Shown in pieces: positions 8,634-45,320 of a DNA stretch of 64,000 nt (position 1 is the first letter of the stretch; every line of letters begins with the position of its first letter). This DNA is from Paraspadella gotoi (taxonomy: Eukaryota; Animalia; Chaetognatha). Under the pieces are notes generated by a model that was given only the letters and a program-made list of their open reading frames with translations, did no database searches and was not told the origin of the DNA. Location: contig CM119264.1 in NCBI GenBank assembly GCA_051294375.1, forward strand, positions 13,784,813-13,848,812. The letters are read 5' to 3'. The position numbers were made by a program, and so were the translations under genes.

Positions 8634-8696
8634 TATCTTGCCCCTGACTTTGGACAGGCTTTGGTGGTTTAAGGCCTCCATCACTCTTACAAGATA
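8634..8696 (-). ncRNA. Twister ribozyme (P5-type), family A, intact
   Basis: UAUCUUGU AA GAGU GA UGG AGGCCU U^AA ACC AC CAAAG CCU G U CCA AA GU C AGG G GCAAGAUA. P5 8 bp, P4 CCUG/CAGG, T1 CCA/UGG, T2 AC/GU, catalytic GA and UAA all in twister order. Predicted cut at 8671^8670. Confidence 0.85.
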
Positions 8697-8960
8697 ATGA
8701 CATAGCAGGTCCCTGCAAGCTTTCAATCAAGACTCTCTCACAGTCTCGTTTATTCACTCCCAGAGTACCTGGCTTCCCTATCAATGAAGTGGAAAATATT
8801 TCAAAGAATGTTTCAATTGTATGAAAAGACCACTCCCTTAAGTATTAGATCGGGGAATACTTATTGTACTCCGCACTAGCATCAAAATACAAGGAGCTGA
8901 ATTTTATGAAATTGGTACAAACCAATATAAAAATTATCCATTCATTTAATAAATAAAGCT

Positions 8961-9025
8961 TATCTTGCCCCTGACTTTGGACAGGCTTTGGTGGTTTTAA
9001 AGGCCTCCATCACTCTTACAAGATA
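8961..9025 (-). ncRNA. Twister ribozyme, family A, third unit
   Basis: Identical core with one extra U and one extra A around the cleavage site (possibly homopolymer read error). Confidence 0.75.
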
Positions 9026-9727
9026 ATGACATAGCAGGTCCTATTGTATTTTGAATATAAAGTTCAAAGTTTATGCAAAAGAGTTAAGATCCGACGACGG
9101 CGATAAAGGCGACAAGGAGGACTCAAACAATCAGGTTTGGGTCTCCTCAGGGTAAGTCGACGCGAGGTGAGTTAACGAGGCGCTATTTTTGGTAGGGATT
9201 CTGTGCGTGCCTTCCGAGGCGTCTCTATCGAAGAAAGGAGGAAAAGTGCGAAGAGGAAGAATAAGTGAGAGACGAAAGAAAAATAACGAGCAGGGGTTGA
9301 ATTGGGTAAGTGTCTCCTTTAAAAGCCGGGCGGGCGGATCGCGTCTAAACGGCGGCCCGTCATGGGATAAGTGCCCTTCCAACTCGGGTCGGAGATGAAG
9401 GGCTCTTTCTTCTTCTTTTTTCTCTTGTGTCGCTAACTCGATTTCCGACGACACAGAGAAACATTGACACAAAATGTGAGATAGGAAATACCGAAAAAAT
9501 ATTTTTTCCATTAAACATTAGAAAGTTTTGGAAATCTCATGGAATAGATAGTCCCGAGCAGGATAATATTTCGATAACATTTAATTAACACTTAATTAAC
9601 TCTTAAATGCACAAAATAGAGACTTTTCCATTATAGTAATTTGACGGAGTAAATTCATCCCTTATCAAAAACCACTGAGTTACATCTGCGCTTCTTTTAT
9701 TCATACGTCACCATACCATATGTTAAC

Positions 9728-11903
9728 CAAACAAACAAAAATTCGAGGTTTTCTTTCATTCTTTCTCAAATAATAAAATAGATAAATATTGTGATAATCT
9801 GTCAAGTCTCCTCCGTGTGAATGGAGAATCTTTTCCTTTTTATGAAATTAAAAAATCGAGGAACGTGAAAGTCTTATTTCTGTTCATCGGTTTTTATTGC
9901 TCCATAGAATCTATCTCTCTCTCTCTCTCTCTCTCTCTCTCTCTCTTCTCTCTCTCTCTCTCTCTCTCTCTCTCTCTCTCTCTCTCTCTCTCTCATTCTC
10001 TCTATTTATCAAAAGCTCAACTTTTCCTTCTTCTTCATGCATTCCTATTTCACGCAACTTTTTGCGTTTCTTTTCTTCTCCTTTTCTCATGCGTTTTCCT
10101 CTCTCGTTAAAAATATCTTTTCTCCTCTCTCTCCTCTCTCTCTCTCTCTCTCTCTCTCTCTCTCTCTCTCTCTTCTCTCTCTCTCTCTTTCTCTCTCTCT
10201 CCTCCATCTTTTTTCATATTCTTTTCAACTGATTTATTCATCTCCTTCTTTTCTTTTTTTTTCGTTATTTTTCTAAAACGAAACCGAATATTTTTTTTCC
10301 TTCTTTAGTGTAATCCCGAGTTCTTCTTCCTTTTTATCGGGAGCATTTATTTTTTTCCTTTNNNNNNNNNNNNNNNNNNNNNNNNNCACATATGTTTCAG
10401 TCTGAATATTAGAAAATTTTTTCGTTGACGCTCGATAATGACCAATGCTTCCTTTCACAGTCTTTCACTGTTGAGAAATCCTCTCTCCGATTTTCTTTCC
10501 TCGTTTCAATCTCTTCTAAATTCGTTTTGATCAACGCCAAGACGAACATGGACGTTCTATGCGCCACAAAAAGAAATATCAGTTTTCAACTCTGATTAAA
10601 CATTAAATGACATTTGATTTGAATTCAAGCCTGGGACGGGAAAAAGAGAATGGTTTATCTCAAGTGTTTCGTTAATAATTTGGTTTGTTTTATTCATTAT
10701 ACTATTTTCTTTTTTCTTTAAACTGTATCTCTTCAGTTTTCCACTCTCCTAAGTTTAGCCAAAGTTTTCTCCAATTTTTCTTTTTTTTACTTCAACTATC
10801 CTCAGTTTTCCTCTCATTTTTCTTCTCCCTTATTTTGTTACGCTCCACTCTTTTCATTATCACTTTTTGTTCTTCTTCGCCATCCTCTTGCCCCGATGTT
10901 CAACTTTCTCCTTCGTTCTGCCCCACTTCCTCCCTTCACGTCCATCTTTCAAATCTGCTCATTATCGAGGGTTGATGTGCGGCATTTTCGCGCGAGAATT
11001 TAAAATGGGCGCGCCTCACGACGGTCTTTGTATCGGAAACAGCGGTAACCATGAAACGGGGAGTATAAAGTTAGGGAAGAATAGGAGCGAAGAGGAAGAG
11101 GAGGGAACAAAAAATTGAAGGAAGAAGTAGAATTAGATTGGAGGAAAGAGAAATAAAAATAAGATAGAAAACACGAACTTCCGATAAAAGAATTAGTAGA
11201 TGTTATTCAAGTGATAATTAAAAAACAATAAACACAATTATGCCATCGTCCTTGGTACTTGATCAATACCATTTACTTTTGAAATAAACAAACAAAAAAA
11301 ATTCGAGGTTTCTGTCATTCTTTTCTAAAAATAATAAAATAAGATAAATATTGTATAATCTGTCAAGTCTCCTCCGTGTGAATGAGAAATCTTTTTCTTT
11401 TTAGAAATTAAAAAATCGAGAACGTGAAAGTCTTATTCGTTCATCGGTTTTTATTGCTCCATAGAATCTCTCTCTTCTCTCGTCTCTCTCTCTTCTCTCT
11501 CTTCTCCTCTCTCTCTCTCTCTTCCTCTCTCTCTCTCTCTCTCTCTATTATATACTATTATCAAAAGCTCAACTTTTCCTTCTTCTTCATAGCATTCCTA
11601 TTCCACGCAACTTTTTGCGTTTCTTTTTCTTCTCCTTTTCTCATGCGTTTTCTCCTCTCGTTAAAATATCTTTTTTCTTCCTTCTTCCTCCTCTCTCTCT
11701 CTCTCTCTTCTCTTCTCTCCTCTCTCTCTCTCTCTCCTCTCTCTCCTTACATCTTTTTCACTATTCTTTTCAACTGATCTTTTATCATCTTCCTCTTTTT
11801 CTTTTTTATTCTAAAACGAAACCGATATTTCTTTTTTCTTCTTGAGTGTAATCCGGAGTTCTTCTTCCCTTTCATACGGAGCAATTCTGATTCTTTTTTT
11901 CCT
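9728..11903. repeat. Direct duplication 9728-10361 / 11287-11903 next to the N-gap at 10362-10386
   Basis: Colinear near-identical text with many homopolymer indels. Probably haplotype or assembly redundancy. Confidence 0.8.
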
Positions 11904-43657: not shown

Positions 43658-44003
43658 GGGAAAAGTAAAGGAAAGTAAAGGAAAGCAAAGGAAAGCAAGG
43701 AAAGCAAAGGAAAGCAAAGAAAAGCAAAGGAAAGCAAAGGAAAGCAAAGGAAAGCCAAGGAAAGCAAAGGAAATCAAAGAAAAGTGAAGGAAAGTAAAGG
43801 AAAGTAAAGGAAACCAAAGGAAAGCAAAGAAAAGCATAGGAAAGCATAGGAAAGCAAAGGAAAGCAAAGGAAAGTAAAGGAAAGAAAAGGAAAGCAAAGG
43901 AAAGTAAAGGAAAGCAAATGACAGCAAATGACAGCAAAGGAAAGCAAAGGAAAGCAAAGGAAAGCAAAGGAAAGCAAAGGAAAGCATAGGAAAGCAAAGG
44001 AAA
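43658..44003. repeat. (GGAAAGCAAA)n 10-bp minisatellite
   Basis: Direct reading. Confidence 0.95.
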
Positions 44004-44479
44004 GGGAGCAAACCCGCGGTTTTAATCTTTGCCATCTGAATCGAACGTCGCGTCGTTACGACGTCTCAGTTTCGTCGTCGTCATCGTCGGCTTCGTCGTC
44101 GTCATCGTCGTCGTATTCGCTTCTTGATATCAAACTGAGCCCAAAACCCATATTTCCTCACCCCATCGCCTTTTCTTTTCTTCCTCATTCGATAGCGATT
44201 ACTTCCCGCCGTCGCGAAATTCTGAGAGGAAACTTCTCTCTCTCTCTCTCGCGACGCAACCCCACTCTCTCCCGAGCAGATAGAATCTAATCGGGCGCTT
44301 CCTTCTCGCGACTTCTCAATGTCTTCGATCCGGAGGATCTTTAATTCCAATCACGTGACTAACTCGTTATTCTTAATCAAACGATGGATCGACGAATCGG
44401 ATCCCTGACTTGATATCCCCTTTCACTCGCTTTCTTTTATTTTTTCTTTTTATCGGTTTATATTTCTTCTATTTTTCAG

Positions 44480-44585
44480 ACGTACGGACTAAGAAGTAAG
44501 AAAAAACCCGGGGTCATCACGGACTACACTTACGTTGACTACGTCGAGATCAGCAGTCCGGCGTTCAAGGCCGGAATGAGGGCAG
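44480..44585 (+). CDS. GRASP: GRASP/tamalin-CYTIP-like protein, PDZ exon (TYGLRSKKKPGVITDYTYVDYVEISSPAFKAGMRAG)
   Basis: TTTCAG acceptor. TYGL...V..SPA..AG..GD pattern of the GRASP/CYTIP PDZ domain. Phase 1 donor matches the next exon. Confidence 0.85.
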
Positions 44586-45069
44586 GTCGCTATTTTGCTT
44601 TCTTTAATATGTTTTTCGCTTTGAAAAAACAACTACCAATTTATAAACCAGAAAATGAGAACGACGTCGCATTTTATCCGAAATATTTTATTGCCTTGTT
44701 TATAATTTCGTCCCTGAGCAATCAATTCGTTCTCTTTATAAATATTTCCCAGTGCACTCTCACTCTTCATCCCTTTCTCTTTTCCCATCCGTCTCCATCT
44801 CTAACTATTTCTCTCTCCCACCCCCCCTCCATTGAAAAAACCTCAATAATGAATCGGTTCATTAATTCCGCGGGCGATTGATGAGCTCCGTTGAAAATCC
44901 TCTGGGTTTTCGCTTCATCATCGATGCATCCAAACCGCATCCGACTTCCTATTCCTCCTATTTATTCTTCCGCTTTAGCTCCATTCAATCTCGCTGCCCC
45001 CTTTTCCGCAAAAACATCATTGGGGTTTTATTCTATGTCTAAAGCAGCAGCGAGCGGAATTAAAGCCCC

Positions 45070-45320
45070 TGTGGCGGTATATTCACACCGCCTCACGTCC
45101 ACCATCCTTCCGCTAAATCCATTGGCTCTGAGGGGGAACACACCATCCCAGGCGTAGTGTTCCATCCACAATCCTAACGACTTGTTGGCAAAGCGAGACC
45201 GTCCTAGGGTAGCCGCGCCAGTGACTGGAGGCGTCACTGAGGGTCGGAAGCCCCCGAAGCCAACAGTGAGATGCCCCATCCCAATGGGCATCACAGGCAA
45301 CCTGGCTGTTGCCATACCCC
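45070..45320 (+). mobile_element. Family C: GC-rich, hairpin-rich ~250-bp element containing a twister, inside the PDZ intron
   Basis: Compositionally distinct from the intron. First 21 nt TGTGGCGGTATATTCACACCG recur at 35016-35036. Boundaries approximate. Confidence 0.55.
45182..45266 (+). ncRNA. Twister ribozyme (P5-type with P3), family C
   Basis: TTGTTGGC AAA GCGA GA CCG TCCTAGGG T^AG CCGC GC CAGTGAC tggaggc GTCACTG AGG G T CGG AA GC C CC CGAA GCCAACAG. P5 8 bp, P3 7 bp, T1 CGG/CCG, T2 GC/GC. UAG replaces UAA and P2 has one mismatch. Confidence 0.8.

What the first reader, a model, noticed from the sequence alone, without database searches (positions are those of the whole stretch)
8634..45266. 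Three different repeat families carry twister ribozymes whose P1 is a short palindrome: candidate dimer-activated 'double twister' system
Seen: P5-permuted twister cores in families A (8634-8696), B (21980-22056, 24923-25001) and C (45182-45266). Pseudoknots covary: T1 CCA/UGG, UCC/GGA, CGG/CCG; T2 AC/GU versus GC/GC. The segment between T1 and the U^A cut site, normally stem P1, is only 6-8 nt and is self-complementary in each family with a different sequence: AGGCCU, CGGCCG (CGGCUG in the other copy, wobble-compatible) and UCCUAGGG. Known: twister needs the order P2-GA-T1 ... UAA-P2-T2 ... G-U-T1-AA-T2-C, and minimal hammerheads with palindromic stem III (newt satellite 2, Penelope-like elements) cleave as dimers. 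Inference: the palindromes are too short for a good hairpin, but two copies could pair them to give both a full P1, so cleavage would be favoured in tandem or multimeric transcripts. I do not know of this being described for twister, but cannot check the literature.
Basis: partly seen in the sequence, partly recalled or inferred. Interest (0 to 1): 0.92.

Follow-up and report, generated by a model that had tools for sequence, protein, structure and literature searches.

The report
Palindrome-paired twister ribozymes in repeats
Three abundant short repeat families in this genome each carry a predicted self-cutting "twister" RNA in which one helix is replaced by a short palindrome, so two copies likely pair up to cut, a trick so far reported only for the unrelated hammerhead ribozyme; cutting itself is untested.

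Summary
Three non-coding repeat families (A, a 325-nt tandem unit; B and C, dispersed ~250-275-nt elements) each hold a complete type-P5 twister fold. P1 is only a 6-8-nt palindrome. Thousands of contigs from public runs match the families; their majority letters give B a perfect CGGCCG and C the canonical UAA. Five published bivalve Naiad consensus sequences carry the same fold with other palindromes there. Prokaryotic and phage P5 twisters instead have 14-30-nt P1 segments, nearly all hairpins; 3 of 35 are fully palindromic. The real A tandem folds, unconstrained, into a strand-swapped double twister. So pairing between copies looks selected. Whether it switches cleavage on is open: P1 is dispensable in P1-type twisters, and B and C are mostly solitary. 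No reverse transcriptase was found, so the Penelope/Naiad link is inferred. I found no paper on dimeric twisters or twisters in Penelope-like elements. This scan had already noted palindromic twisters in Naiads of other genomes. Verdict: new variant of a known kind; interest 0.72.

The parts
8259..9041 (-). Family A array: 2.4 head-to-tail copies of a 325-nt unit; first copy 5'-truncated, defined 3' end at 8259
   Evidence: TRF period 325, 96% matches; sequence
8634..8696 (-). Family A type-P5 twister fold, the one intact window copy; predicted cut between 8671 (U) and 8670 (A)
   Evidence: sub-threshold Rfam Twister-P5 hit 8643-8685
8672..8677 (-). Family A palindrome AGGCCU in place of P1
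   Evidence: self-duplex -9.1 kcal/mol, 1-bp hairpin +5.6
8961..9025 (-). Family A twister, upstream tandem copy, with one extra U and one extra A around the cut site (mutation or homopolymer error); predicted pairing partner of the 8634-8696 copy
8313..8370 (-). Family A twister, third tandem copy; lacks the cut-site stretch
8240..8259 (.). (TA)n run abutting the 3' end of the A array; probable insertion target
21419..21804 (+). Second family A locus: junction-truncated half ribozyme (P4 at 21434), one unit, twister at 21713-21775 with T2 broken in this copy (21761 A; 97% of laid depth reads G)
55187..55261 (+). Family A 3'-tail fragment without ribozyme
21854..22128 (+). Family B element, copy 1 (dispersed; 5' end at 21854; 3' end approximate, at a terminal hairpin)
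   Evidence: loose ends at 21854 and 22088; sequence
21980..22056 (+). Family B twister, copy 1; P1 segment 21995-22000 CGGCUG (98% of laid depth reads C at 21999, giving CGGCCG); predicted cut 22001/22002
24809..25031 (+). Family B element, copy 2, with decayed twister 24923-25001 (T2 and P4 broken) but perfect CGGCCG at 24939-24944
45070..45316 (+). Family C element, 247 nt, dispersed, fixed ends, unrelated AT-rich flanks
   Evidence: depth and loose ends in 3 runs
45184..45264 (+). Family C twister; palindrome UCCUAGGG 45202-45209; predicted cut 45210/45211; this copy has UAG (45212), the family majority UAA

Best explanation
Families A, B and C are high-copy non-coding repeats that each carry a predicted type-P5 twister ribozyme whose P1 helix is reduced to a 6-8-nt palindrome, and two copies likely pair these palindromes to build a double twister that would cut tandem or paired transcripts more efficiently than a lone copy is cut. 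Shown: the fold, the palindromes, their fixation across copies, the high copy number, and family A's partial-tandem layout ending on (TA)n. Predicted: in a tandem transcript the 3' half of copy 1 and the 5' half of copy 2 form an ordinary P1-type twister, the outer halves form a second one, and the palindrome duplex serves as P1 for both. Inferred: two cuts release a unit-length RNA (325 nt for A) that is likely circularised, as hammerhead retrozyme RNAs are. A lone or circular copy cannot form a proper P1 and would be cut more slowly, which preserves it as a template. Inferred: a Penelope-like (probably Naiad) reverse transcriptase, not found here, copies it back into DNA, starting 90-127 nt downstream of the cut.
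For: (1) T1 differs in all three families (UGG/CCA, GGA/UCC, CCG/CGG) and T2 in two forms, all paired; P4 and P5 are present; chance 0 of 100 shuffles. (2) Majority letters in independent runs restore exactly the motif positions: 21999 T>C 98% in 2 runs, 21761 A>G 97%, 45212 G>A at least 99.6% in 3 runs. In C's complete table (variants of 4% or more) none falls in the palindrome, T1, T2 or stems of the core, while two fall in the P3 loop. (3) Five Naiad consensus sequences in the Craig 2021 supplement (by record order Mgal, Bpla, Mphi, Scon, Mmer) have the same fold near their 3' end, with different perfect palindromes after T1 (UAGCUAGCUA, GGCGCC, UGAUGCAUCA, UGGAGCGCUCCA, GGUGCGCACC) and a second 8-9-nt one before the cut; read by eye. 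Bpla shares the 9 bases up to GA with C, Mmer those with A. (4) Control: 35 distinct prokaryotic/phage P5 twisters from 127 loci have P1 segments of 14-30 nt, 33 folding as hairpins, 3 fully palindromic; 8 of 8 versus 3 of 35, Fisher p 1e-6; 3 of 3 versus 3 of 35, p 0.002 (families not independent). (5) Duplex -9.1 to -11.0 versus hairpin +2.7 to +5.7 kcal/mol. The unconstrained fold of the real A tandem pairs the two palindromes (p at least 0.99) and swaps P5. (6) Precedent: axolotl hammerheads with one pair plus a palindromic tetraloop cleave poorly as monomers and well as dimers (PMC7229834 passages).
Against: No cleavage data. Twisters lacking P1 cleave at almost wild-type rate (PMC5408937), and P1 imperfections had no effect in a large screen of P1-type twisters (PMC11662667); a 6-nt link (1 pair plus 4-nt loop) should let a monomer close. 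B and C appear as solitary elements with unrelated flanks, and no head-to-tail joint was among the rows shown for them (tables cut: 115 and 33 rows hidden). The folding model ignores T1, T2 and co-transcriptional folding, which favours the local monomer; any tandem palindrome will pair in such a model. Only 1 of 3 copies in the A array is intact. A and B share GGCC and may not be independent. For A and B only the 40 best-supported of 129 variant rows were shown. No RT or GIY-YIG in 110 window frames. The Naiad twisters have two palindromes, these have one; 5 other Naiad 3' ends read had no twister. In one purified Penelope-like element, hammerhead cleavage was not needed for insertion in vitro (PMC11167929).
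Confidence: 0.55

Rival explanations
1. The monomers cleave well by themselves; the palindrome is a selected RNA-RNA pairing handle (loop-loop kiss or product-holding duplex) used after or apart from catalysis, for ligation into circles or multimers, or to bring two templates together for reverse transcription.
For: P1 is dispensable for cleavage, yet the palindrome is kept. The Naiad versions have two palindromes, more than P1 needs. Other Naiads with a different motif also show palindromes in their tails (by eye).
Against: The palindrome sits exactly between T1 and the cut site, flush with both, in all three families. Solitary B and C elements with fixed ends and an internal cut site are easier to explain if lone transcripts stay uncut (inference).
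Confidence: 0.25
2. The palindromes are shrunken remnants of an ordinary P1 hairpin (loop and outer pairs lost by microhomology deletion), tolerated because P1 is dispensable; the ribozymes are monomer-active mini-twisters.
For: Phage P1 hairpins such as CGGCC-loop-GGCCG (L118, L159) would collapse to CGGCCG in one deletion. 3 of 35 prokaryotic P1 segments are full palindromes that can still fold as hairpins.
Against: At least six different palindromes across 8 families. They are held against drift in C while the P3 loop varies. The second palindrome in Naiads has no hairpin ancestry in the twister fold.
Confidence: 0.12
3. The twister folds are inherited fossils of a Naiad-like ancestor and do not cut in these families; the palindrome acts, if at all, at the DNA or protein-binding level.
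For: Weak P2 in A and B; below Rfam threshold; most window copies are damaged; cleavage was dispensable in vitro for one Penelope-like element.
Against: The family majorities keep U-A-A, G-A, L4, T1 and T2. P2 imperfections were tolerated in the large screen.
Confidence: 0.08

Closest known systems
Type-P5 twister ribozyme (Rfam RF02684; reviewed in PMC5408937)
   Same: Order P5-P2-GA-T1-[P1]-UAA-P2-T2-P3-P4-U-T1-AA-T2-P4-P5; both pseudoknots pair; sub-threshold Rfam hit for A.
   Different: P1 is a 6-8-nt palindrome, not a 14-30-nt hairpin segment. P2 has only 2-3 pairs. Found in eukaryotic repeats.
Dimeric minimal hammerheads of amphibian retrozymes and Penelope-like elements (PMC7229834 and PMC6765202, passages read; Lunse 2017 and Forster 1988 not read)
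   Same: A helix next to the cut site is shrunk to a short palindrome; short repeat units of 150-450 nt; tandem layout.
   Different: Unrelated ribozyme class. Hammerhead stem III is needed for activity, whereas twister P1 is reported dispensable, so dimer activation does not carry over automatically.
Non-LTR retrozymes (PMC7229834; bioRxiv 10.64898/2026.07.22.740005)
   Same: Non-coding 250-325-nt units, one ribozyme per unit, tandem and solo copies, high copy number, proposed Penelope-like origin.
   Different: Defined by type I hammerheads; the 2026 preprint has no occurrence of 'twister'. RNA and circles are not shown here.
Naiad Penelope-like elements (PMC8557442)
   Same: 5 published consensus sequences carry the same twister fold with palindromes near the 3' end; shared bases before GA; (TA)n target and partial tandem for family A.
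   Different: The paper reports no canonical hammerhead and has no 'twister' in the main text. Naiad twisters have two palindromes. Families A-C encode no protein, and no Naiad was found in this window.
Twister variants in Perere-3 non-LTR retrotransposons of Schistosoma (PMC8501958)
   Same: Twister in an animal retroelement with a poor P1.
   Different: Those are P1-type at the 5' end of a LINE; no 'palindrom' or 'dimer' in the text. Here the ribozyme is P5-type and internal.

Membership tests
Twister ribozyme, type P5 | Conserved core: G-A before T1, U-A-A at the cut, G-U-T1-A-A-T2-C in L4 | tested here: met
   C's UAA holds for the family majority, not for the window copy
Twister ribozyme, type P5 | Pseudoknots T1 (3 bp) and T2 (2 bp) pair | tested here: met
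   Three different T1 and two different T2 pairings across families; broken in decayed copies B2 and A-21713
Twister ribozyme, type P5 | Stems P2, P4 and closing P5 | tested here: met
   P4 3-5 bp, P5 4-7 bp; P2 only 2-3 bp with a mismatch
Twister ribozyme, type P5 | P1 as an intramolecular hairpin | tested here: not met
   6-8-nt palindrome; hairpin +2.7 to +5.7 kcal/mol; P1 is reported dispensable
Twister ribozyme, type P5 | Rfam RF02684 gathering score 37.6 | tested here: not met
   A 25.8 bits; B and C not listed at E up to 1
Twister ribozyme, type P5 | Self-cleavage at U^A | not testable with these tools
   Only contigs were available; they cannot show RNA ends
Non-LTR retrozyme | Non-coding 150-450-nt unit with one ribozyme, in tandem | tested here: inconclusive
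   Met for A; B and C seen only as solitary elements
Non-LTR retrozyme | Type I hammerhead | tested here: not met
   Twister instead; a loose hammerhead pattern gave no hit with a hammerhead fold in the elements; no Rfam hammerhead hit
Non-LTR retrozyme | Expressed as linear and circular unit-length RNA | not testable with these tools
   No run on record as RNA and no raw reads
Non-autonomous Naiad/Penelope-like derivative | Partial tandem with fixed 3' end; (TA)n or AT-rich target | tested here: met
   A array; AT-rich flanks for B and C; not unique to Naiads
Non-autonomous Naiad/Penelope-like derivative | 3' end shared with an autonomous RT-GIY-YIG element of the same genome | not testable with these tools
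   No genome held; no RT or GIY-YIG in the window
Dimer-cleaving ribozyme (double-hammerhead type) | Palindromic helix that pairs between copies | tested here: met
   Predicted only:
Dimer-cleaving ribozyme (double-hammerhead type) | Dimer cleaves faster than monomer | not testable with these tools
   Needs in vitro kinetics

The most novel reading that the evidence does not exclude
Twister has independently evolved the double-hammerhead trick: Naiad-type Penelope-like elements and a class of twister-bearing retrozymes use a palindromic P1 as a copy-number sensor, so that only paired or tandem RNAs are cut, through a strand-swapped double twister, while lone and circular RNAs survive as templates.
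Probability: 0.4. Interest if true: 0.88.

Novelty: new variant of a known kind. Interest (0 to 1): 0.72.

Why it matters
If pairing controls cutting, this would be a natural dimer-dependent twister, which I did not find in print, and two unrelated ribozymes would have converged on one design in one niche: short tandem retroelement RNAs. It would extend animal retrozymes beyond hammerheads and supply a candidate for the ribozyme thought missing from Naiads, which are among the most abundant retroelements of some invertebrates. It would also give a function to twister's conserved but catalytically dispensable P1. These motifs fall below Rfam's threshold, so many may be unannotated. The test is cheap: three RNAs of 60-80 nt.

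Tried and rejected
No whole genome is held, so no genome-wide alignment, covariation test or search for an autonomous partner was possible. Run search: no RNA holder listed; small-share rows that I did not lay were not used, also not for habitat. X11 and X12 (other organisms) gave 2 contigs each at depth under 6, and X16 gave none for C; not used as evidence. Metagenome scan with the A/B pattern: 28 loci, none a relative of A or B; 27 look like chance, one (L070) is a hairpin-P1 twister. Viral scans: A/B pattern 2 hits, Naiad-type pattern 6 hits, all chance. The first viral scan (43 loci) was mostly chance; 5 were clear 14-nt hairpin P5 twisters. Control rows dropped: of 37 P1 segments passing the filter, 2 were shorter alternative parses of loci already counted (L117, L170); 2 of the 35 kept do not fold as hairpins and 2 were flagged as possible P1-type. 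MAFFT misaligned C, so no covariance model or pair count was built on it. My early idea that B is a tRNA-derived SINE was dropped: ARAGORN finds no tRNA, and the B-box-like stretch at 24895 lies in an 11-bp hairpin about 85 nt inside the element. Whole-element folding z-scores are modest (-1.7 to -2.7) and add little. Supplement motif searches mostly hit chance sites; line breaks can hide matches, and I read only 10 of 54 Naiad 3' ends, so 5 is a lower bound. Lunse 2017 is not held.
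Full report
Setting. The window is microsatellite-rich eukaryotic DNA, apparently animal (inference; a PDZ exon scores E 1.6e-4, below the Pfam cut-off). 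No genome is held. None of 110 longer frames matches a reverse transcriptase or GIY-YIG family.

Observation. Each follows the type-P5 twister order, with a P5 stem closing the fold. T1 is UGG/CCA in A, GGA/UCC in B and CCG/CGG in C; T2 is AC/GU or GC/GC. Between T1 and the cut site lie only AGGCCU, CGGC(C/U)G and UCCUAGGG. A pattern that leaves this segment free matches twice in the window and never in 100 shuffles. Rfam sees only A, below threshold. Several window copies are damaged: C has UAG, B2 has broken T2 and P4, and 4 of 5 A copies are altered or truncated.

The families. A is a 325-nt unit in a 2.4-copy array. It begins with a 5'-truncated copy and ends at a fixed point on (TA)n; further pieces lie at 21419 and 55187. 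B and C are solitary elements of about 275 and 247 nt with fixed ends and unrelated AT-rich flanks. In one DNA run 16,793 contigs lie on the A+B stretch and 5,925 on C, so all are abundant (depth is no copy number). The predicted cut lies 90, 127 and 106 nt before the 3' end.

Are the palindromes kept? In the laid contigs 98% of depth reads C at 21999, giving perfect CGGCCG; 97% reads G at 21761, restoring T2 of A (40 of 129 rows shown). For C the table is complete at 4%: 45212 reads A in at least 99.6% of depth in three runs of three studies; no variant lies in the palindrome or the core pairs, and two lie in the P3 loop. Three families with the fold, and family majorities that match it, argue for a maintained ribozyme.

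Outside evidence. Earlier notes of this scan pointed to Naiads; I checked this in the supplement of Craig et al. 2021. Five bivalve consensus sequences (named by record order: Mgal, Bpla, Mphi, Scon, Mmer) carry the same fold near the 3' end, with T2 varying in pairs (AC/GU, CC/GG), P4 and a long P5. In three of them T1 has one mismatch. Each has a different perfect palindrome after T1 and a second short one before the cut (read by eye). Mgal, Bpla and Mphi share the weak P2 of A and B. Five other Naiad 3' ends showed no twister. As a control, 35 distinct prokaryotic and phage P5 twisters from 127 loci have P1 segments of 14-30 nt; none is shorter, and 3 are fully palindromic. 8 of 8 against 3 of 35 gives p 1e-6, and the window alone p 0.002; shared ancestry inflates both, and the Naiad hits were found partly with motifs taken from these families.

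How it likely works. The palindromes cannot fold back usefully (+2.7 to +5.7 kcal/mol) but form duplexes of -9.1 to -11.0. In a tandem, the 3' half of one copy plus the 5' half of the next is an ordinary P1-type twister; the outer halves form a second, and the palindrome duplex is P1 for both. Apart from T1 and T2 this is a nested structure. For the real A tandem it scores 11.7 kcal/mol better than two monomer folds, and the unconstrained fold adopts its main helices (palindrome duplex p at least 0.99, swapped P5 p 0.95-0.99; the outer P2 is out of register). Two-molecule dimers of B1 and C gain 11.9 and 13.4. This is prediction: it ignores the pseudoknots and folding during transcription. By analogy with hammerhead retrozymes, double cleavage would release a unit RNA that is circularised. 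Internal initiation by a Penelope-like enzyme, shown for another element, could then give both solo copies and partial tandems. These last steps are inference.

Against. P1 is dispensable in P1-type twisters, unlike hammerhead stem III, and a 6-nt link should let a monomer close; the screen did not cover P5 permutations. B and C were not seen in tandem. So the palindrome may be a pairing handle for ligation or template pairing and not a catalytic switch. I put dimer-favoured cleavage at 0.55, a handle with active monomers at 0.25, a neutral remnant at 0.12 and a dead fossil at 0.08.

Literature. Searches found no paper on dimeric or palindromic twisters, twister retrozymes, or twisters in Penelope-like elements; subscription papers are mostly not covered, and one search was swamped by unrelated hits. 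What I saw: passages of PMC7761336, PMC6765202, PMC5680766, PMC8501958, PMC11662667, PMC5408937, PMC11167929, PMC7229834 and PMC10085705; passages of PMC8557442 with part 1 and searched stretches of its supplement; part 1 of 5 and passages of bioRxiv 10.64898/2026.07.22.740005. Roth 2014, Kosutic 2015, Lunse 2017 and Forster 1988 were not read; the canonical twister geometry is recalled, apart from the Rfam consensus.

Verdict. A real, maintained twister variant with a palindromic P1 in retrozyme-like repeats. It works like the double hammerhead if the dimer model holds; it is not a member of the hammerhead retrozymes as defined. New variant of a known kind; interest 0.72.

Noticed in passing
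window 44414-45831 (+): Family C lies, in sense, between two exon-like stretches of a PDZ-domain gene (PDZ hit). It would be transcribed in the host pre-mRNA; this copy has lost the third base of UAA.
   Followed up: no
L116, L120, L127 (matches at about 151-200): Three phage P5 twisters have 16-18-nt fully palindromic P1 segments that can fold as hairpins or pair between copies; L116 shares its contig with further twisters (L117, L149).
   Followed up: partly
L070, 635-700 (-): Metagenome twister between two ORFs with the same T1 (UGG/CCA), T2 (AC/GU) and 3-nt P2 strand as family A, but an ordinary long P1 hairpin.
   Followed up: partly
PMC8557442 supplement, 3' ends of the records before Naiad_Sglo, Olur, Mcor and Ebur: These Naiads share a different conserved tail motif that also holds short palindromes; earlier scan notes call such motifs rearranged hammerheads.
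   Followed up: no
window 57812-58061: 250-nt imperfect inverted repeat (79% self-complementary), MITE-like.
   Followed up: no
window 9724-20386, 28931-34035, 36976-42412: Local duplications of 0.6-2.8 kb at 80-95% identity; real tandem duplication or assembly artefact.
   Followed up: no
window 21925-21952: B copy 1 has four tandem 7-mers and a deletion where copy 2 has an 11-bp hairpin; most laid contigs lack this stretch.
   Followed up: no
window 35016-35036: Exact match to the first 21 nt of family C, standing alone.
   Followed up: no
window 55288-55749 (-), with a paralogous stretch near 58602-58721: Exon fragments that look like a glutathione S-transferase (recalled resemblance; no Pfam hit).
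   Followed up: no
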